A DNA stretch of 8,912 nucleotides from Naegleria gruberi (taxonomy: Eukaryota). The position numbers and the translations under genes were made by a program. A model generated the notes under the pieces. It was not told the DNA's origin. It did not search any database and worked only from the letters and a program-made list of their open reading frames with translations. Below are positions 1 through 8,912 of the stretch, one piece after another; the stretch's first letter is position 1; each line of letters starts with the position of its first letter. Location of the stretch: assembly GCA_000004985.1 (NCBI GenBank), contig GG739052.1. One strand, 5' to 3'.

Positions 1-765
1 TCATCTCAATGGACACAGAACTGGACTGATGCAAATGATTATTATCATGAGATTGCAAAGAACTCGTCGAAGTATTCAAATCAGTAGGCAAATGATGAGA
101 ACATTGGCATAAAGTGAATAATCACAATTATTTGGATCAATTTTGTGAAGTTCTTCAATGACATTTTGGATGGTTGACTTTTCATGGAGTGAATTCGAAG
201 GAGTGGAAAGAGAAGGATGTTCTGTGATATTCTCTTGTTGCTGCATTTTGGGAGGTGATTGAGTTGGATTGTTTTTTTGAGTTTGGATATTCAATAGTAT
301 GGAGGGTTATTAATATCACAACAGTTTCGAATAGCTTGTGTGTGATAAGAAGATGAAGATTAAATGTACGCGCTGTTGGGTTAATGTAATAGAGCATGTA
401 AGAGATTGAGAAAAGGAGTCCTTCATCTTATTTACAATTAGTTTCGTACTTCTAACAACTTGATTGGAAACTGGTTGGAAAATTCCCAAATTAAAACATT
501 CAGCTTTGTTAAATATCAAACATAAAAGTCATTTGTAAAGTACGTCCACTCTTTCGCGCACTAAATTTTTGACTCATGTGAAAAATCGATTGGTAAATTG
601 TTACGTTCTTGCATGAAGCGGTATTTTAAAATTAAGATCCTCATGTGGTAAAGTAAATGAGAATTTGTTGATTTGGAGACATTTTAGGAAGATGACAGTT
701 CTCCCATAACGAAGAAGCGTACTGATTGAAATTGTTCTTTGGTTTCGAATAATGTTAATATTATT

Positions 766-1009: not shown

Positions 1010-1723
1010 TCACTGCATGACCAATTTATTTGATATTGGAAACTGAAATTGACGCAGACGAAACATTTCTTCACTCGCATTACATTGTTTCATGTGAATG
1101 TATTCGTCTAATTTTCTTCTCTTGAGGTAATTGTCATCTACAGTGAACCCATTCGAAACTGTAGATTGATGGTTTGTTGATTCGTCTAGTTTCGAATCAA
1201 TTTCTTCTGATTTCGAAGGTAATGGAATTTGTACAGTTGGTAGATTGTTATTTACATTAATTGGAGGGAGAGTGAGTTCGATATTTGGTACTTCCACCAC
1301 AACAGATGGAATTTCATTCATATCAATTGGCGGGAGTTGAATTTTCTTTTGGTTTCGTTTGTTTTCTTGTTCGAAAGGACACTTATCAGTATTTTCTTTC
1401 ATGGTTGACCTAGGTGATGATGAGAATTTGTATCTTCTGATTGGTTGTTGAGCTGGTGGAGCCGAATCATTTTGTACGAAACTTGCTTTGAGGGGAAATG
1501 GATTTTGAATTGGTTGGAGGAGAACCTTGTTACTAGGAGAAGGTGGAGAAAGATGTTTTAGAGAGGAAATGGGAGATTGAGTTTCGAATAGTGGTGTCTT
1601 GGGAGGTAATTCTTGAAACGAAACTCTTGAAATTGAATTCACCCCAGTTGATTCTTCTTGATCATTATTCATCATTTCAGGAATCTCAACAAGAGAATCA
1701 TAATACGATACAGCAGAACCCAT
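1010..1723 (-). CDS. Hypothetical Pro/Ser-rich low-complexity protein (237 aa), intronless ORF; N-terminus MGSAVSY fits the N-myristoylation consensus (Gly2, Ser6)
   Basis: Uninterrupted ATG-initiated ORF. The start codon is a true ATG (plus 1721-1723 = cat) in an A-rich context (aagaataagaATGg). The protein is rich in P/S/N/Q, has repeated LPPI(D/N)xN and SPPSPS motifs, and a KRRK basic cluster. No recognisable catalytic domain. Length and composition bias argue against a chance ORF in 33% GC DNA. Confidence 0.45.
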   Translation of the reverse strand: MGSAVSYYDSLVEIPEMMNNDQEESTGVNSISRVSFQELPPKTPLFETQSPISSLKHLSPPSPSNKVLLQPIQNPFPLKASFVQNDSAPPAQQPIRRYKFSSSPRSTMKENTDKCPFEQENKRNQKKIQLPPIDMNEIPSVVVEVPNIELTLPPINVNNNLPTVQIPLPSKSEEIDSKLDESTNHQSTVSNGFTVDDNYLKRRKLDEYIHMKQCNASEEMFRLRQFQFPISNKLVMQ

Positions 1724-1778
1724 TCTTATTCTTCTTCTTAATATTCTAAACTAATCTTTCTATATTTAGTTGACTATC

Positions 1779-2212: not shown

Positions 2213-2458
2213 TTACATGAAATTCGAATATCTTTCAAATTCCCAATCAGTCACACAATGATGCACATATTTATCCCATTCAGCTCTCTTAGCCATCTTG
2301 AACATGTTGAAATTATGCTCCAGGAAAACTTCCTTCATGAGTGGATCCTTTTCAAATTCCTTAATGGCTTCCAATAAATTTTCAGGTAACAGTTCGAGAC
2401 CTTCCTTCTTCAATTCCTCATCCGAATAGTCAAAGACATTGTCTGTTCTGGCAGGTGG
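2213..2458 (-). CDS. 3'-terminal fragment (81 codons + TAA) of a glutamine synthetase family protein (GS type I-like / lengsin-like catalytic domain C-terminus); upstream portion lost in the assembly gap
   Basis: Translation ...PPARTDNVFDYSDEELKKEGLELLPENLLEAIKEFEKDPLMKEVFLEHNFNMFKMAKRAEWDKYVHHCVTDWEFERYSNFM*. It aligns by eye to the conserved C-terminus of bacterial GlnA-type GS (LPxSLxEAL..LExD......F.......K.E.D.V....P.EFELYY; here LPENLLEAI..FEKD...F...F..K.AEWDKY...VTDWEFERY). It does not resemble the type II GS C-terminus. The ORF runs straight into the N block. Confidence 0.65.
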   Translation of the reverse strand, partial: PPARTDNVFDYSDEELKKEGLELLPENLLEAIKEFEKDPLMKEVFLEHNFNMFKMAKRAEWDKYVHHCVTDWEFERYSNFM

Positions 2459-5400
2459 NNNNNNNNNNNNNNNNNNNNNNNNNNNNNNNNNNNNNNNNNN
2501 NNNNNNNNNNNNNNNNNNNNNNNNNNNNNNNNNNNNNNNNNNNNNNNNNNNNNNNNNNNNNNNNNNNNNNNNNNNNNNNNNNNNNNNNNNNNNNNNNNNN
2601 NNNNNNNNNNNNNNNNNNNNNNNNNNNNNNNNNNNNNNNNNNNNNNNNNNNNNNNNNNNNNNNNNNNNNNNNNNNNNNNNNNNNNNNNNNNNNNNNNNNN
2701 NNNNNNNNNNNNNNNNNNNNNNNNNNNNNNNNNNNNNNNNNNNNNNNNNNNNNNNNNNNNNNNNNNNNNNNNNNNNNNNNNNNNNNNNNNNNNNNNNNNN
2801 NNNNNNNNNNNNNNNNNNNNNNNNNNNNNNNNNNNNNNNNNNNNNNNNNNNNNNNNNNNNNNNNNNNNNNNNNNNNNNNNNNNNNNNNNNNNNNNNNNNN
2901 NNNNNNNNNNNNNNNNNNNNNNNNNNNNNNNNNNNNNNNNNNNNNNNNNNNNNNNNNNNNNNNNNNNNNNNNNNNNNNNNNNNNNNNNNNNNNNNNNNNN
3001 NNNNNNNNNNNNNNNNNNNNNNNNNNNNNNNNNNNNNNNNNNNNNNNNNNNNNNNNNNNNNNNNNNNNNNNNNNNNNNNNNNNNNNNNNNNNNNNNNNNN
3101 NNNNNNNNNNNNNNNNNNNNNNNNNNNNNNNNNNNNNNNNNNNNNNNNNNNNNNNNNNNNNNNNNNNNNNNNNNNNNNNNNNNNNNNNNNNNNNNNNNNN
3201 NNNNNNNNNNNNNNNNNNNNNNNNNNNNNNNNNNNNNNNNNNNNNNNNNNNNNNNNNNNNNNNNNNNNNNNNNNNNNNNNNNNNNNNNNNNNNNNNNNNN
3301 NNNNNNNNNNNNNNNNNNNNNNNNNNNNNNNNNNNNNNNNNNNNNNNNNNNNNNNNNNNNNNNNNNNNNNNNNNNNNNNNNNNNNNNNNNNNNNNNNNNN
3401 NNNNNNNNNNNNNNNNNNNNNNNNNNNNNNNNNNNNNNNNNNNNNNNNNNNNNNNNNNNNNNNNNNNNNNNNNNNNNNNNNNNNNNNNNNNNNNNNNNNN
3501 NNNNNNNNNNNNNNNNNNNNNNNNNNNNNNNNNNNNNNNNNNNNNNNNNNNNNNNNNNNNNNNNNNNNNNNNNNNNNNNNNNNNNNNNNNNNNNNNNNNN
3601 NNNNNNNNNNNNNNNNNNNNNNNNNNNNNNNNNNNNNNNNNNNNNNNNNNNNNNNNNNNNNNNNNNNNNNNNNNNNNNNNNNNNNNNNNNNNNNNNNNNN
3701 NNNNNNNNNNNNNNNNNNNNNNNNNNNNNNNNNNNNNNNNNNNNNNNNNNNNNNNNNNNNNNNNNNNNNNNNNNNNNNNNNNNNNNNNNNNNNNNNNNNN
3801 NNNNNNNNNNNNNNNNNNNNNNNNNNNNNNNNNNNNNNNNNNNNNNNNNNNNNNNNNNNNNNNNNNNNNNNNNNNNNNNNNNNNNNNNNNNNNNNNNNNN
3901 NNNNNNNNNNNNNNNNNNNNNNNNNNNNNNNNNNNNNNNNNNNNNNNNNNNNNNNNNNNNNNNNNNNNNNNNNNNNNNNNNNNNNNNNNNNNNNNNNNNN
4001 NNNNNNNNNNNNNNNNNNNNNNNNNNNNNNNNNNNNNNNNNNNNNNNNNNNNNNNNNNNNNNNNNNNNNNNNNNNNNNNNNNNNNNNNNNNNNNNNNNNN
4101 NNNNNNNNNNNNNNNNNNNNNNNNNNNNNNNNNNNNNNNNNNNNNNNNNNNNNNNNNNNNNNNNNNNNNNNNNNNNNNNNNNNNNNNNNNNNNNNNNNNN
4201 NNNNNNNNNNNNNNNNNNNNNNNNNNNNNNNNNNNNNNNNNNNNNNNNNNNNNNNNNNNNNNNNNNNNNNNNNNNNNNNNNNNNNNNNNNNNNNNNNNNN
4301 NNNNNNNNNNNNNNNNNNNNNNNNNNNNNNNNNNNNNNNNNNNNNNNNNNNNNNNNNNNNNNNNNNNNNNNNNNNNNNNNNNNNNNNNNNNNNNNNNNNN
4401 NNNNNNNNNNNNNNNNNNNNNNNNNNNNNNNNNNNNNNNNNNNNNNNNNNNNNNNNNNNNNNNNNNNNNNNNNNNNNNNNNNNNNNNNNNNNNNNNNNNN
4501 NNNNNNNNNNNNNNNNNNNNNNNNNNNNNNNNNNNNNNNNNNNNNNNNNNNNNNNNNNNNNNNNNNNNNNNNNNNNNNNNNNNNNNNNNNNNNNNNNNNN
4601 NNNNNNNNNNNNNNNNNNNNNNNNNNNNNNNNNNNNNNNNNNNNNNNNNNNNNNNNNNNNNNNNNNNNNNNNNNNNNNNNNNNNNNNNNNNNNNNNNNNN
4701 NNNNNNNNNNNNNNNNNNNNNNNNNNNNNNNNNNNNNNNNNNNNNNNNNNNNNNNNNNNNNNNNNNNNNNNNNNNNNNNNNNNNNNNNNNNNNNNNNNNN
4801 NNNNNNNNNNNNNNNNNNNNNNNNNNNNNNNNNNNNNNNNNNNNNNNNNNNNNNNNNNNNNNNNNNNNNNNNNNNNNNNNNNNNNNNNNNNNNNNNNNNN
4901 NNNNNNNNNNNNNNNNNNNNNNNNNNNNNNNNNNNNNNNNNNNNNNNNNNNNNNNNNNNNNNNNNNNNNNNNNNNNNNNNNNNNNNNNNNNNNNNNNNNN
5001 NNNNNNNNNNNNNNNNNNNNNNNNNNNNNNNNNNNNNNNNNNNNNNNNNNNNNNNNNNNNNNNNNNNNNNNNNNNNNNNNNNNNNNNNNNNNNNNNNNNN
5101 NNNNNNNNNNNNNNNNNNNNNNNNNNNNNNNNNNNNNNNNNNNNNNNNNNNNNNNNNNNNNNNNNNNNNNNNNNNNNNNNNNNNNNNNNNNNNNNNNNNN
5201 NNNNNNNNNNNNNNNNNNNNNNNNNNNNNNNNNNNNNNNNNNNNNNNNNNNNNNNNNNNNNNNNNNNNNNNNNNNNNNNNNNNNNNNNNNNNNNNNNNNN
5301 NNNNNNNNNNNNNNNNNNNNNNNNNNNNNNNNNNNNNNNNNNNNNNNNNNNNNNNNNNNNNNNNNNNNNNNNNNNNNNNNNNNNNNNNNNNNNNNNNNNN

Positions 5401-6673
5401 NNNNNNNNNNNNNNNNNNNNNNNNNNNNNNNNNNNNNNNNNNNNNNNNNNNNNNNNNNNNNNNNNNNNNNNNNNNNNNNNNNNNNNNNNNNNNNNNNNNN
5501 NNNNNNNNNNNNNNNNNNNNNNNNNNNNNNNNNNNNNNNNNNNNNNNNNNNNNNNNNNNNNNNNNNNNNNNNNNNNNNNNNNNNNNNNNNNNNNNNNNNN
5601 NNNNNNNNNNNNNNNNNNNNNNNNNNNNNNNNNNNNNNNNNNNNNNNNNNNNNNNNNNNNNNNNNNNNNNNNNNNNNNNNNNNNNNNNNNNNNNNNNNNN
5701 NNNNNNNNNNNNNNNNNNNNNNNNNNNNNNNNNNNNNNNNNNNNNNNNNNNNNNNNNNNNNNNNNNNNNNNNNNNNNNNNNNNNNNNNNNNNNNNNNNNN
5801 NNNNNNNNNNNNNNNNNNNNNNNNNNNNNNNNNNNNNNNNNNNNNNNNNNNNNNNNNNNNNNNNNNNNNNNNNNNNNNNNNNNNNNNNNNNNNNNNNNNN
5901 NNNNNNNNNNNNNNNNNNNNNNNNNNNNNNNNNNNNNNNNNNNNNNNNNNNNNNNNNNNNNNNNNNNNNNNNNNNNNNNNNNNNNNNNNNNNNNNNNNNN
6001 NNNNNNNNNNNNNNNNNNNNNNNNNNNNNNNNNNNNNNNNNNNNNNNNNNNNNNNNNNNNNNNNNNNNNNNNNNNNNNNNNNNNNNNNNNNNNNNNNNNN
6101 NNNNNNNNNNNNNNNNNNNNNNNNNNNNNNNNNNNNNNNNNNNNNNNNNNNNNNNNNNNNNNNNNNNNNNNNNNNNNNNNNNNNNNNNNNNNNNNNNNNN
6201 NNNNNNNNNNNNNNNNNNNNNNNNNNNNNNNNNNNNNNNNNNNNNNNNNNNNNNNNNNNNNNNNNNNNNNNNNNNNNNNNNNNNNNNNNNNNNNNNNNNN
6301 NNNNNNNNNNNNNNNNNNNNNNNNNNNNNNNNNNNNNNNNNNNNNNNNNNNNNNNNNNNNNNNNNNNNNNNNNNNNNNNNNNNNNNNNNNNNNNNNNNNN
6401 NNNNNNNNNNNNNNNNNNNNNNNNNNNNNNNNNNNNNNNNNNNNNNNNNNNNNNNNNNNNNNNNNNNNNNNNNNNNNNNNNNNNNNNNNNNNNNNNNNNN
6501 NNNNNNNNNNNNNNNNNNNNNNNNNNNNNNNNNNNNNNNNNNNNNNNNNNNNNNNNNNNNNNNNNNNNNNNNNNNNNNNNNNNNNNNNNNNNNNNNNNNN
6601 NNNNNNNNNNNNNNNNNNNNNNNNNNNNNNNNNNNNNNNNNNNNNNNNNNNNNNNNNNNNNNNNNNNNNNNNN
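2459..6673. other. Assembly/scaffold gap: 4215 consecutive N
   Basis: Direct observation. The X-filled ORFs spanning it are meaningless. Confidence 0.99.
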
Positions 6674-6888
6674 GTGCAAATATATCACTTGCAAAAGAGA
6701 ACGGATTCTCTTTTTTTTCAATAGAAGCTTGTATCACTTCAGGAGCAATAAAATTGACAGTTCCAGAAATGCCTGTACTTGTGAAAGTATCCAAGTTTCT
6801 GGCCAATCCAAAATCCGAAAGAACTACACTCACTTCTTCTCTCTCCAAATCCAAATCTCTTATCAAAATATTATCTGGTTTGATGTCT
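6674..6888 (-). CDS. Ser/Thr protein kinase, internal exon (catalytic loop to subdomain IX), continues 3'-ward into the gap
   Basis: The minus-strand translation starts immediately after a CTCTAG acceptor: (R)DIKPDNILIRDLDLEREEVSVVLSDFGLARNLDTFTSTGISGTVNFIAPEVIQASIEKKENPFSFASDIFA... This carries the catalytic-loop DIKPDN, DFG, APE and the subdomain IX D-I-F-A motif. The frame is still open at the gap edge. Confidence 0.75.
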
Positions 6889-6931
6889 CTAGAGATAAAT
6901 AGAAAAATAATTGCATAATTTAATTACTTAC
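6889..6931 (-). other. 43-nt spliceosomal intron (minus strand GTAAGTAATT...TTTATCTCTAG), phase 2
   Basis: Minus-strand sequence ...CTTATTCACAG|GTAAGT....CTCTAG|AGACATCAAACCAGATAAT. Splicing joins LIH-R to DIKPDN and recreates the invariant HRD(I)KPDN catalytic loop. Reading through the intron instead gives an immediate in-frame TAA. Confidence 0.7.
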
Positions 6932-7317
6932 CTGTGAATTAAATTGCAAACTTTCAAAATTTCCAAAGCACTACACATTTGTACTAGAATAGTCTGCATA
7001 ATCTTTTCAGAAAATGGCTTTTCTGTCGTCATTACATTTTTCAAGCTCATCTTCATCAACTCCATTTCTATCCCTACAATACCATCTCCAATCATGAATA
7101 AATCACAAGTTTTAATAATATTGCAGTGAGTAATCTGACGCATCTTTTGATACTCTCGAACGGAAATCATAACTTCCGATGTTTGCTTACCCAATTTTAG
7201 AGCCAACTTTTCATAATTCTTGGTAGTCACTTTATAAACAGTGCCAAAACCTCCCGTAGCAATAAATTCCTTGGATATGTATCGATCTTCAAAGGCTTGT
7301 CGATCGTTATCATACGT
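6932..7317 (-). CDS. Ser/Thr protein kinase, N-lobe exon (Gly-rich loop, beta3 Lys, alphaC, hinge, up to H-R of HRD); 5' boundary unresolved
   Basis: Translation ...FEDRYISKEFIATGGFGTVYKVTTKNYEKLALKLGKQTSEVMISVREYQKMRQITHCNIIKTCDLFMIGDGIVGIEMELMKMSLKNVMTTEKPFSEKIMQTILVQMCSALEILKVCNLIHR. This shows the GxGxxG loop, VAIK-type LALK and alphaC Glu. An in-frame TAA at 7318-7320 lies only 9 codons upstream of the Gly loop, so the true exon start is somewhere in 7293..7317 with no convincing acceptor. The coordinate 7317 is the maximal open frame, not a called splice site. Confidence 0.65.
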
Positions 7318-7546
7318 TTAACATTCGGGTATGAATTGAAATTCTTCATCCTCTTGATTAGTTACTTCAACGCAAGGCTGAACAAACGAGTCTTGATCAA
7401 ACCCATCATCCACTTGTCTATCATTTCGTGCTTCGTGAGTCAACATTTTTTATGTTTGATGAGGTTTAGCCATTCAATGTTGTCTGGTATTATTGTCAAT
7501 TATAAATAATTGTTCGGAATGGAAGATTGTACAAAGAATAACCAGA

Positions 7547-7921
7547 TTAAACCTTAGATTGACTAGTTTGAGTATCGGTAGTATAGGTATTAGTAGTATT
7601 AGTATTAGTTGTTGTTGTGTCTTGTTCGGATTGATTTCTATTGAAAAAATCAAAGGAAGGATGATATAAACACATGACCAAAATTGAAAAGATTAAAATT
7701 CCCAAACAATTCAAAAAATCATAAAACAATGATGAATAATTCCAAACAAAACTAACAGCACCCAATCCAACTGCAATAATTTGAAAAAATGTTGAAAATA
7801 TCAAAACTGAAAGCAAAATGATAATTTTCAAAATGGGTTGTTTCCATGAATAGGATTGAGATTGATCTTTGAATTGTTTTCTTGTCTTGTTCAGCAGTAT
7901 AATCACTCTTGAAAACACAAT
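7547..7921 (-). CDS. Seven-transmembrane receptor-like protein, exon 2 (ICL3, TM6, TM7, Thr/Asn-rich cytoplasmic tail ending -SKV) incl. TAA stop
   Basis: Translation IVFSRVIILLNKTRKQFKDQSQSYSWKQPILKIIILLSVLIFSTFFQIIAVGLGAVSFVWNYSSLFYDFLNCLGILIFSILVMCLYHPSFDFFNRNQSEQDTTTTNTNTTNTYTTDTQTSQSKV*. Two clear hydrophobic helices follow a basic loop. Stop TAA at 7547-7549. Confidence 0.5.
   Translation of the reverse strand: MVFSRVIILLNKTRKQFKDQSQSYSWKQPILKIIILLSVLIFSTFFQIIAVGLGAVSFVWNYSSLFYDFLNCLGILIFSILVMCLYHPSFDFFNRNQSEQDTTTTNTNTTNTYTTDTQTSQSKV
7581..7619 (-). repeat. Coding microsatellite-like tract (tattag / ttg repeats) encoding the Thr/Asn-rich receptor tail
   Basis: Plus strand gtataggtattagtagtattagtattagttgttgttgtg. 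On the minus strand this gives ACA/ACT/AAT codon runs (TTTTNTNTTNTYTT). Such tracts are slippage-prone. Confidence 0.5.
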
Positions 7922-7984
7922 CTATTCATCATTTCAAAATAATTTTAGCTATTAGAATTATGAGAATGTTAAATGAAAACTTAC
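7922..7984 (-). other. Putative 63-nt intron (GTAAGTTTTC...GATGAATAG), phase 0
   Basis: A consensus GTAAGT donor directly follows codon TCA. The only in-phase AG that joins the frame to the downstream TM6-TM7 ORF is the AG of TAG at 7922-7924. The acceptor is A/T-rich but not TTTCAG-like, so the exact 3' splice site is uncertain. The alternative acceptor TTTTCAAG at ~7907 is out of phase. Confidence 0.4.
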
Positions 7985-8785
7985 TGAAATTGCAATTGTT
8001 TGAACAATTAATTGAATTGCAAAGAATGCAAAACAAGCAATTGAAAAGATGAACAAAATATCCACAGTCACTTTCAAGCTCTCAATTACAAGCATGACAA
8101 ACACTGCAACAACCAACAAGAAGTACATTGCAGAACTAATGAAAAAGGAAGTATCAAATATCTTTCTGATAATTTTTGTTTGTTTTGATTTCAAAATTCC
8201 TTGTGAATATTTGATCAAATTGAAGAACAAATGAGAAATGTAGTGCACAATTTCATTAATCACCAACAAGGCAATCAAAATGAGGAATGTTTCAATACCA
8301 AGAGCAAAGAACAATCCCACTAAATCAGCATATGGTATCCCAACAGTTTCTGTTGTCAATGTACTATTCCTGTTTATCATAACATCTTGATAGAGTTGAT
8401 CTGGTTCATTCACATTATTCACTTTCAAATAATTGTGAAATCGTTCAACAATGGAAATATTACAAAAAGTATAAGCAGTTCTTGCACACAATGCCAATGT
8501 TTGAACAATCAACAATGTATTCACGAGAATGAGAACAATTCTTTGAGCCTTCCTCAATGTCTTCCAAGTTTGATTCCTCACAATGAAAATTATCATGACA
8601 AGAATGAGTGAAATGAACAACAAGATGAAGAGAAAGGAAATCGATTGATCAATGGCACTCAACAAAGTATCATCAAAATCATCAATAGTAAACACTGGAG
8701 AGGAGACATTGTTGGTAGATGACGTTTCGTTTACCTGGTAGTTTACTAGAAGAGCGAGTTCGGCAATTTTTCCAACAGAATGCAT
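7985..8785 (-). CDS. Seven-transmembrane receptor-like membrane protein, exon 1 (N-terminal ectodomain to TM5); family unassigned (nematode chemoreceptor-like, lacks class-A DRY/NPxxY)
   Basis: True ATG at 8783-8785 (minus) in the context acaaacaaagATGcat. It encodes MHSVGKIAELALLVNYQVNETSS...; the ORF-track extension upstream of this ATG starts at TTG and is preceded by an in-frame TAG. There are five strongly hydrophobic ~20-25 aa segments separated by basic loops (RNQTWKTLRKAQR; KSKQTKIIRK), consistent with an N-out topology. N-glycosylation sequons NETS, NIS and NST sit in predicted extracellular segments. The exon ends at a consensus GTAAGT donor (ATTTCA|GTAAGT). Confidence 0.55.
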
Positions 8786-8912
8786 CTTTGTTTGTTTTTT
8801 TCTTTTGTGATTAGTGAAGTATGACAACGTTACAGGAATGAAAACGAATAACAATTTGAGAGATATGGATTGTACTAATTGGAAGAATAGTTGCAACTAA
8901 CAAATATAGAAA

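What the first reader, a model, noticed from the sequence alone, without database searches (positions are those of the whole stretch)
2213..7317. Kinase N-terminal half and glutamine-synthetase-like C-terminus sit on the same strand either side of a 4.2-kb gap: two genes, or one kinase-GS fusion?
On the minus strand, a Ser/Thr kinase catalytic domain enters the N block at 6674. It is still in frame at subdomain IX, and about 100 more codons are expected. A GS type-I-like catalytic-domain C-terminus emerges from the other side at 2458. If the gap length is roughly right, 4.2 kb could hold either the kinase 3' end, an intergenic region and a separate ~400-aa GS-like gene, or a single long gene fusing the two domains. 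I know of no described kinase-GS fusion, so this would be notable if real. The separate-gene model is the conservative default. Either way, nearly half of this window is unsequenced, and that is where the informative parts of both genes lie.
Basis: partly seen in the sequence, partly recalled or inferred. Interest (0 to 1): 0.55.

Follow-up and report, generated by a model that had tools for sequence, protein, structure and literature searches.

The report
Two separate genes, not a fusion
The kinase and the glutamine-synthetase-like fragment on either side of the 4.2-kb assembly gap are two ordinary, separate genes of the amoeba Naegleria gruberi, and the only "kinase-GS fusion" here is an erroneous public gene model that treats the gap as an intron.

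Summary
On the minus strand, a protein-kinase domain (Pfam Pkinase positions 3-182 of 263) runs into the N block at 6674. The last 81 codons of a type-I glutamine synthetase (Gln-synt_C 274-344 of 344) leave it at 2458. The N run is 2459..6673 (4,215 N).

The window is a complete 8,912-bp scaffold of the Naegleria gruberi NEG-M assembly. Contigs from a very close relative or second copy (98.4-98.6% identical in the GS tail) fill 2,287 bases of the gap. They show:
- a stand-alone 467-aa GS with its own ATG and a 107-nt intron;
- three in-frame stop codons 15 codons upstream of that ATG;
- a 448-bp spacer of 24% GC;
- a 182-aa gene on the opposite strand (NAEGRDRAFT_73341).

The intact GS is already annotated (NAEGRDRAFT_52785) on a 297-kb scaffold.

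A public 622-aa "predicted protein" on this scaffold chains the neighbouring membrane protein, two thirds of the kinase domain and the last 62 GS residues. It does so through a 4,330-nt "intron" made of the gap, and it is an annotation artefact. About 1.9 kb of the gap, including the kinase 3' end, remains unseen. Interest is low.

The parts
7547..8785 (-). Multi-pass membrane protein gene, 391 aa, with no Pfam family. Exon 1 is 8785..7985, then a 63-nt GTAAGT..AATAG intron (7984..7922), then exon 2 at 7921..7550 with stop TAA at 7549..7547. It forms the first 386 residues of the public chimeric model P0176.
   Evidence: Six-frame translation. The spliced product is 100% identical to P0176 over 99% of its length. 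Six or seven hydrophobic segments were found. There was no Pfam hit.
6674..7446 (-). Protein kinase gene, 5' part. The ATG is at 7446..7444. Exon 1 runs to 6932, the 43-nt intron is 6931..6889, and exon 2 runs from 6888 to 6674 and on into the gap. An in-frame TAA lies at 7320..7318; the relative has AAA there.
   Evidence: Pkinase profile positions 3-182 of 263, E 3.9e-33. P0001 from contig L001 reads Lys at the TAA position. Motifs ALK, HRDIKPDN, DFG and APE are present.
2459..6673 (.). Scaffolding gap of 4,215 N.
2213..2458 (-). The last 81 codons plus the TAA stop of a type-I (GSI-alpha-like) glutamine synthetase gene.
   Evidence: Gln-synt_C profile positions 274-344 of 344. It is 98.4-98.6% identical to L003 and L002, and all 4 differences are synonymous. 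The protein tail is identical to N. gruberi XP_002671623.1.
2459..3723 (-). INFERRED inside the gap; coordinates are nominal, taken as window = 4746 minus the L003 position. This is the rest of the GS gene: exon 2 to ~3566, a 107-nt GTAAGT..CAG intron at ~3567..3673, and a 50-nt exon 1 with its ATG at ~3723. In-frame stops TAG TAG TAA lie at ~3777..3769.
   Evidence: L002 and L003 sequence and reconstruction. In the 467-aa product, Gln-synt_N covers residues 11-84 (profile 2-66 of 82) and Gln-synt_C covers 126-463 (profile 2-344 of 344).
3724..4171 (.). INFERRED inside the gap (nominal coordinates): a 448-bp spacer of 24% GC between the divergent start codons of the GS gene and of NAEGRDRAFT_73341.
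   Evidence: L003 575..1022 has GC 0.243-0.244, against 0.377-0.379 in the GS coding sequence. All three frames in the GS orientation carry 7-13 stops.
4172..4720 (+). INFERRED inside the gap (nominal coordinates): a 182-aa gene on the opposite strand, identical to N. gruberi XP_002671558.1 (NAEGRDRAFT_73341, UniProt D2VWD3). Its function is unknown.
   Evidence: ORF at L003 574..26. An exact match lies on the same 297,120-bp scaffold as the GS. There was no significant Pfam hit.
1011..1724 (-). The next gene downstream of the GS tail: a 237-aa intronless ORF equal to N. gruberi XP_002668466.1 (NAEGRDRAFT_76619). The record's contig length of 8,912 bp identifies the window.

Best explanation
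The window is a whole small scaffold (8,912 bp) of the Naegleria gruberi NEG-M draft genome, made of two contigs joined across an estimated 4.2-kb gap.

The two fragments that flank the gap belong to two independent genes on the same strand.

(1) An ordinary eukaryotic-type Ser/Thr protein kinase. Its ATG is at 7446 and it has one 43-nt intron. Its last ~80+ codons lie in the gap.

(2) A stand-alone type-I (GSI-alpha-like) glutamine synthetase of about 467 aa with two exons. Only its last 81 codons are sequenced here.

Between them the gap holds, in order from the GS side:
- the first ~1.27 kb of the GS gene;
- a ~450-bp AT-rich divergent promoter spacer;
- a 182-aa gene on the opposite strand (NAEGRDRAFT_73341);
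- about 1.9 kb still unseen, which must include the kinase 3' end.

What is shown: the content of 2,287 bases of the gap, read in a 98.4-98.6%-identical copy. What is inferred: that the window's own copy has the same structure, and that the gap length is roughly right.

The public 622-aa protein that carries both a kinase and a GS domain is a gene-prediction artefact. It splices the membrane protein to the kinase and the kinase to the GS tail, across the N run.
For: Identity of the window. Its 237-aa ORF is an exact match to N. gruberi XP_002668466.1, on a contig of 8,912 bp. The ~33% GC matches the published NEG-M value (PMC8296547 Table 2).

Gap content.
- P0022 and P0172 contain the window's GS tail.
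- L002 and L003 overlap window 2458..2313 and 2458..2213 at 98.6% and 98.4%. All 4 differences are synonymous.
- L003 has the GS ATG at 1023, preceded by TAG TAG TAA 45-54 nt upstream. Every frame of L003 1..1022 in the GS orientation carries 9-32 stops.
- The first exon restores the start of the beta-grasp domain: Gln-synt_N starts at profile position 2 at residue 11, against position 23 in the public 440-aa model. The GS fold therefore begins at the predicted N-terminus with no room for an upstream domain.
- The best solved homologue, a 448-aa archaeal GS, aligns its residues 13-445 to residues 8-463.
- None of the 150 best relatives of the tail is longer than 508 aa.
- The opposite-strand ORF is the annotated N. 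gruberi gene 73341. It is on the same 297-kb scaffold as the GS, and the two have consecutive UniProt accessions.
- All five start codons, including the GS one, sit behind A-rich leaders.

The artefact. P0176 maps to 8785..7985, 7921..7564, 7295..6932, 6888..6738 and 2407..2216. Its 268-nt 'intron' skips a stop codon, an intergenic spacer and the kinase ATG and TAA. Its 4,330-nt 'intron' spans the whole N run. The credible introns here are 43, 63 and 107 nt, and the published mean is 203 bp. In P0176, Pkinase profile positions 3-167 of 263 abut Gln-synt_C positions 283-344 of 344, so neither domain is complete.
Against: The gap content was read in another copy (another haplotype, strain or duplicate), not in the window's own DNA.

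Similarity between the window and L003 stops exactly at the GS stop codon. The two copies therefore differ structurally at least downstream of the gene.

No contig bridges gene 73341 to the kinase. Adjacency of the kinase and the GS rests only on the scaffold join. About 1.9 kb of the gap is unaccounted for.

No transcript data were available.

Whether the opposite-strand ORF is really expressed rests on the public annotation, its complete ORF, its start context and its uniform GC. A codon-usage test did not discriminate between the strands.
Confidence: 0.95

Rival explanations
1. A genuine kinase-GS fusion gene in this copy. The kinase transcript would continue across the gap, through one or more long introns that would have to contain the opposite-strand gene, into the GS exons.
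For: Both fragments are on the same strand. A public model (P0176) encodes such a chain. An AG at L003 ~1006, between the triple stop and the GS ATG, could in principle serve as an acceptor. The window's copy differs from L003 downstream of the GS gene.
Against: In the 98%-identical copy the GS has its own ATG at the natural N-terminus of the fold, three in-frame stops upstream, a 24% GC spacer and a divergent gene. The junction in P0176 cuts both domains and needs a 4,330-nt intron made of N, against 43-107 nt observed and a 203-bp genome mean. No relative of the tail exceeds 508 aa.
Confidence: 0.02
2. The scaffold join is wrong, or the window is a rearranged or duplicated copy. In that case the kinase contig (6674..8912) and the GS-tail contig (1..2458) are not neighbours in the genome, and the GS tail may be a truncated duplicate rather than the end of a full gene.
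For: Similarity to L003 ends at the GS stop codon, and L003's next 31 nt occur nowhere in the window. Gene 76619 and the membrane protein each sit alone in their 90% clusters, and no twin on the 297-kb scaffold was found. No contig links gene 73341 to the kinase.
Against: All four differences in the 246-nt tail are synonymous, which points to purifying selection on both copies. The strand orientation of the two contigs is consistent. The 4.2-kb estimate comfortably holds the 2.3 kb seen in L003 plus a kinase 3' end. Only 31 nt of downstream sequence were available for the comparison.
Confidence: 0.12
3. The kinase ends inside L003. On this reading the 112-codon frame open from L003's first base ('...DFDEFPSFSEIVNFL...') is the kinase C-terminus, the annotated opposite-strand gene is a shadow ORF, and the real gap is only ~2.4 kb.
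For: The frame is open to the contig end, and the motif loosely resembles kinase subdomain XI. Codon-usage scores for the two strands are equal, at 0.058 and 0.057 per codon.
Against: There was no Pfam match even at E 10, and the Pkinase alignment did not extend into this frame. There was no PDB hit at E<=10. It scores -2.9 bits against a kinase HMM with filters off, and 196 of 300 shuffles score as high. GC is uniform over L003 26..574, so there is no coding/non-coding step at 341. The opposite-strand ORF is complete and has an A-rich start context.
Confidence: 0.04

Closest known systems
Type I glutamine synthetase, GSI-alpha subgroup (the GlnA of Bacillus, methanogens and relatives; e.g. 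PDB 8OOL from Methanothermococcus thermolithotrophicus and 4LNF from Bacillus subtilis)
   Same: The length (467 aa) and the two-domain layout match: Gln-synt_N at residues 11-84 and Gln-synt_C at 126-463. The best solved match is 8OOL at E 2.8e-75, aligned end to end. In that alignment the metal, ATP and glutamate motifs are kept: DGSS, EPEF, HHE..GQ.E, FMPKP, GSG.H.H, NSYKRLV.G.EAP, NR.A..R.P and E.R.PD.
   Different: It scores 338 bits against TIGR00653, below the 429-bit equivalog cut-off. It has AGSGQH where the solved enzymes have NGSGMH, and a ~20-residue insertion in the N-domain. It is encoded in a eukaryote and carries a spliceosomal intron. Its substrate (ammonia or another amine) is untested. 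For the 81-aa tail alone, the best PDB hit was a glutamate--methylamine ligase.
Eukaryotic-type Ser/Thr protein kinase (Pfam PF00069)
   Same: The N-lobe and catalytic loop are present: an ATGGFGTV glycine loop, ALK lysine, HRDIKPDN, DFG and APE.
   Different: The first glycine of the loop is Ala. The nearest database relatives are only 28-40% identical, so no subfamily can be assigned. Subdomains X-XI are unsequenced. This copy has a premature TAA at codon 43.
Chimeric gene models across assembly gaps (automated-annotation artefact)
   Same: P0176 joins three neighbouring same-strand genes using GT..AG pairs, one of them across the N run. The domains are truncated at the joins.
   Different: Nothing unusual. 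This one happens to create a Pkinase + Gln-synt_C architecture that exists nowhere else among the relatives examined.

Membership tests
Glutamine synthetase type I (Pfam Gln-synt_N + Gln-synt_C; NCBIfam TIGR00653 GlnA) | C-terminal catalytic domain (PF00120) above the gathering score | tested here: met
   The window fragment alone scores 46.4 bits against a cut-off of 24, over profile positions 274-344 of 344. The reconstructed protein scores 309.7 bits over positions 2-344 of 344.
Glutamine synthetase type I (Pfam Gln-synt_N + Gln-synt_C; NCBIfam TIGR00653 GlnA) | N-terminal beta-grasp domain (PF03951) | tested here: met
   It scores 42.0 bits against a cut-off of 33.4, at residues 11-84 of the reconstruction. 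This part lies in the gap and was read from L002 and L003, not from the window.
Glutamine synthetase type I (Pfam Gln-synt_N + Gln-synt_C; NCBIfam TIGR00653 GlnA) | Score above the TIGR00653 equivalog cut-off, i.e. same function as bacterial GlnA | tested here: not met
   It scores 338.1 bits against a cut-off of 429.15. It is still the best NCBIfam hit, ahead of type III (236 bits) and gamma-glutamylputrescine synthetase (210 bits). It is therefore a member of the GS type-I superfamily, but ammonia specificity is not established.
Glutamine synthetase type I (Pfam Gln-synt_N + Gln-synt_C; NCBIfam TIGR00653 GlnA) | Conserved metal-, ATP- and glutamate-binding motifs | tested here: met
   The alignments to 8OOL and 4LNF keep EPEF, HHE, GQ.E, GSG.H.H, NSYKRLV.G.EAP, NR.A..R.P and E.R.PD. 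One deviation is NGSGMH changed to AGSGQH.
Glutamine synthetase type I (Pfam Gln-synt_N + Gln-synt_C; NCBIfam TIGR00653 GlnA) | ATP-dependent glutamate-ammonia ligase activity; dodecameric assembly | not testable with these tools
   Needs an enzyme assay or a structure.
Protein kinase superfamily (PF00069) | Pkinase domain above the gathering score, with catalytic HRD, DFG and APE | tested here: met
   It scores 115.4 bits against a cut-off of 31.7, over profile positions 3-182 of 263. The motifs were located.
Protein kinase superfamily (PF00069) | Complete C-lobe (subdomains X-XI) | not testable with these tools
   It lies in the unsequenced part of the gap. No contig of the relative covering it was found.
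Kinase-GS fusion protein (hypothetical architecture) | One continuous reading frame or transcript linking a complete kinase domain to a complete GS | tested here: not met
   The 98%-identical copy has in-frame stops, an AT-rich spacer and an opposite-strand gene upstream of the GS ATG. The only protein with both domains, P0176, has both domains truncated and joined across the N run.

The most novel reading that the evidence does not exclude
The 8.9-kb scaffold may be a structurally divergent second copy of the locus rather than a mis-merged haplotype. In this copy the kinase would truly be joined to, or co-transcribed with, the GS. A milder version is that the copy is a decaying duplicate: a nonsense codon in the kinase, a different sequence straight after the GS stop, and a hypervariable block in the membrane protein. 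That would give a glimpse of allele- or paralogue-specific gene loss in a heterozygous amoeba.
Probability: 0.02. Interest if true: 0.5.

Novelty: already known. Interest (0 to 1): 0.1.

Why it matters
The biology is ordinary: two standard enzymes, already present in the public N. gruberi gene set.

The practical value is curatorial.
- A 622-aa N. gruberi 'predicted protein' in NCBI, UniProt and EukProt shows a unique membrane-protein + Pkinase + Gln-synt_C architecture. It is an artefact of predicting genes across an N gap, and it could mislead domain-architecture or gene-fusion surveys.
- The public model of the real GS (NAEGRDRAFT_52785) appears to lack its first exon, which is 27 residues.
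- The scaffold looks like a redundant, diverged copy of part of a larger scaffold.

Tried and rejected
(1) Alternative genetic code. The in-frame TAA in the kinase suggested a ciliate-type code. I rejected this because the neighbouring 267- and 237-codon ORFs have no internal TAA or TAG, the GS ends at a TAA at the normal family C-terminus, and the relative has AAA at that codon.

(2) A word-index search with the 81-aa GS tail found nothing, although 48-81 identical residues exist in the database. Only the exhaustive HMMER search found them.

(3) An exact look-up of gene positions for the 237-aa ORF and for P0176 found nothing. The NCBI Naegleria scaffolds are not in that index, so the 297-kb scaffold could not be read.

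(4) A JGI metagenome scan with the kinase returned only kinases at 24-42% identity, so no bridging contig was found.

(5) L001 (kinase side) ends at window 6851, before the gap.

(6) I considered that L003's 112-codon frame might be the kinase C-terminus. I rejected this. The codon-usage test was inconclusive.

(7) Literature. There were no papers on PRJEB11402, nothing specific on a Naegleria GS, and the 2010 genome paper is not held.

(8) Exact look-ups of my spliced membrane protein and of kinase sub-ORFs found nothing, because the public model is the chimera.
Full report
**1. The observation**

The window is 8,912 bases at about 33% GC, with one run of 4,215 N at 2459..6673. All recognisable genes are on the minus strand.

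- GS side. Translation of 2458..2216 gives 81 residues ending ...VTDWEFERYSNFM, followed by TAA at 2215..2213. Pfam Gln-synt_C matches at E 3.6e-12, covering profile positions 274-344 of 344. Solved type-I enzymes of ~447 aa align at their residues ~370-446.
- Kinase side. The minus strand encodes a protein kinase: Pkinase E 3.9e-33, profile positions 3-182 of 263. It has one 43-nt GTAAGT..TAG intron (6931..6889) and the motifs ALK, HRDIKPDN, DFG and APE. The frame is open at 'SDIFA' where the N run starts.

The one refinement is that the kinase begins at the ATG at 7446, not at 7317.

**2. Where the window comes from**

Short GT..AG introns and compact spacing pointed to a eukaryote. The standard genetic code applies: the long ORFs have no internal TAA or TAG.

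An exact look-up showed that the 237-aa ORF at 1724..1011 is Naegleria gruberi XP_002668466.1 (NAEGRDRAFT_76619). Its record sits on a contig of 8,912 bp, which is the length of the window. The window is therefore a complete small scaffold of the NEG-M draft assembly. The GC content agrees with the published 33% (PMC8296547 Table 2).

**3. What is in the gap**

The word-index search with the GS tail found nothing. The exhaustive HMMER search returned P0022, a 414-aa protein that is 96% identical over the first 50 residues of the tail. P0022 ends in a translated Illumina adapter.

Two contigs carry this GS. One is L002, a Logan assembly of run ERR1078381. The other is L003, a longer contig from the ENA assembly of the same run.
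- They overlap window 2458..2313 and 2458..2213 at 98.6% and 98.4% identity.
- All four differences are synonymous.
- L003 extends 2,287 bases into the region that is N in the window.

The ORFs of L003 are identical in protein sequence to two annotated N. gruberi genes. These are NAEGRDRAFT_52785 (440 aa, UniProt D2VWD2) and NAEGRDRAFT_73341 (182 aa, D2VWD3). Both are on one 297,120-bp scaffold.

Reading L003 away from the window's GS tail, the order is as follows.
- GS exon 2.
- A 107-nt GTAAGT..CAG intron.
- A 50-nt exon 1 starting MASTYLPNEPIYFIEN.
- Fifteen in-frame codons, which include a second possible ATG.
- TAG TAG TAA in frame.
- A 448-bp spacer of 24% GC, against 38% in the GS coding sequence.
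- The 182-codon ORF on the opposite strand, with its own A-rich start context.

The first exon is supported by the domain model. With it, Gln-synt_N is matched from profile position 2 at residue 11 (42.0 bits). The public 440-aa model matches only from profile position 23 (34.3 bits).

The reconstructed 467-aa protein aligns end to end with a 448-aa archaeal GS, PDB 8OOL, at E 2.8e-75. The GS fold therefore starts at the predicted N-terminus, and nothing is fused upstream. In the GS orientation, every frame of L003 1..1022 has 9-32 stops.

**4. Two genes or one**

Two genes. The GS has its own start, preceded by stops, a promoter-like spacer and a divergently oriented gene. None of the 150 closest relatives of the tail is longer than 508 aa.

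If the gap length is right, the nominal layout is as follows.
- GS: 2213..~3723.
- Spacer: ~3724..4171.
- Gene 73341 on the + strand: ~4172..4720.
- Unseen: ~4746..6673 (1.9 kb), which must contain the kinase's last ~80+ codons.

I could not obtain the unseen part. L001, the relative's kinase contig (95.5% identical over 6851..8862), stops before the gap. A JGI metagenome scan gave only distant kinases. The NCBI scaffold is not in the positional index.

**5. An apparent kinase-GS fusion in the databases, and why it is an artefact**

I searched with the spliced membrane protein next to the kinase. This returned P0176, a 622-aa 'predicted protein [Naegleria gruberi]' on the 8,912-bp contig, with precomputed Pfam hits to both kinase families and to Gln-synt_C.

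P0176 maps to these exons: 8785..7985, 7921..7564, 7295..6932, 6888..6738 and 2407..2216.
- Two of its introns are credible (63 and 43 nt).
- The third, 268 nt, removes the membrane protein's last five codons and stop, the intergenic spacer, the kinase ATG and the premature TAA.
- The fourth, 4,330 nt, is essentially the N run.

In the product, Pkinase profile positions 3-167 of 263 abut Gln-synt_C positions 283-344 of 344. That is a kinase without its C-lobe joined to the last helices of a GS. The published mean intron length for NEG-M is 203 bp and the mean gene length is 1,677 bp. The model is a three-gene chimera produced by predicting across a gap.

**6. What the genes are and how they probably work**

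- The GS is a GSI-alpha-like enzyme. TIGR00653 is its best NCBIfam hit at 338 bits, but this is below the 429-bit equivalog cut-off. The metal, ATP and glutamate motifs are conserved in the alignments to 8OOL and 4LNF. One change is NGSGMH to AGSGQH, and the N-domain has an insertion. It is most likely an active ATP-dependent gamma-glutamyl ligase. Ammonia as the substrate is inferred, not shown.
- The kinase has all the catalytic motifs visible so far and is only 28-40% identical to anything else found. In this scaffold it carries a nonsense codon, which may be an allele or a sequencing error.
- Gene 73341, gene 76619 and the membrane protein have no family assignment.

**7. Relation of the window to the 297-kb scaffold**

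The synonymous-only divergence in the GS tail suggests a second copy under selection, either an allele or a recent duplicate.

Several points complicate a simple allelic picture.
- Similarity to L003 ends exactly at the stop codon, and L003's next 31 bases are nowhere in the window.
- Neither gene 76619 nor the membrane protein has a detected twin.

A structural difference between the copies, or a wrong scaffold join, therefore cannot be excluded. I put this at ~0.12. Either way the two-gene conclusion stands.

**8. A lead that failed**

A 112-codon frame, open from L003's first base in the kinase orientation, contains 'DFDEFPSFSEIVNFL', which loosely resembles kinase subdomain XI.
- It has no Pfam match.
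- It has no PDB match at E<=10.
- It scores -2.9 bits against a kinase HMM with filters off, and 196 of 300 shuffles score as high.
- Codon usage did not separate the two strands.
- GC is uniform across the annotated opposite-strand ORF.

I keep the annotated gene.

**9. Verdict**

- The separate-gene default is supported, and the fusion is refuted (residual probability ~0.02).
- Both genes are of well-known kinds and are already in the public gene set.
- The useful by-products are annotation corrections.
- Interest is 0.1.

Noticed in passing
window 8785..2216 (minus strand), exons as mapped: A public 622-aa N. gruberi 'predicted protein' (P0176; held by NCBI, UniRef and EukProt) is a chimera of three genes, joined across an intergenic region and across the 4,215-N gap. 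It gives a spurious membrane-protein + Pkinase + Gln-synt_C architecture.
   Followed up: yes
window 7320..7318 (minus strand); L001 position 1545: There is an in-frame TAA at codon 43 of the kinase, where the 99.5%-identical relative has AAA (Lys). This is either a nonsense allele or decaying copy, or a base-call error. The public chimeric model hides it inside an invented intron.
   Followed up: partly
L003 1023..1179 (nominal window ~3723..3567, inside the gap): The public GS model NAEGRDRAFT_52785 (440 aa) starts at an internal Met. A 50-nt first exon and a 107-nt intron add 27 residues and restore the first ~21 positions of the Gln-synt_N profile. An alternative in-frame ATG lies 14 codons further upstream (L003 981).
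   Followed up: partly
window 8130..8042, against L001 734..822: A hypervariable block of about 31 mismatches in 89 nt lies inside the membrane-protein coding sequence. The rest of the 2-kb alignment differs at isolated sites and by in-frame indels in the Thr/Asn-rich C-terminal tail (7618..7576).
   Followed up: no
window 2212 downstream, against L003 2534..2564: Similarity between the window and the relative's contig stops exactly at the GS stop codon. The relative's 31 downstream bases occur nowhere in the window. Gene 76619 has no detected twin, which hints at a structural difference between the two copies of the locus.
   Followed up: partly
window 1..247 (minus strand): Another ORF starts at about 247 (MQQQENITEHPSLSTPSNSLHEK...) and runs towards the scaffold end. 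It was not in the protein collection as an exact sequence and was not characterised.
   Followed up: no
L001, L002, L003 (run ERR1078381, study PRJEB11402, labelled 'metagenome'): This public 'metagenome' run contains DNA of N. gruberi or a very close relative. Two of its ORFs are identical in protein sequence to NEG-M genes, while its kinase-side contig is only 95.5% identical to the window. No paper citing the study was found.
   Followed up: partly
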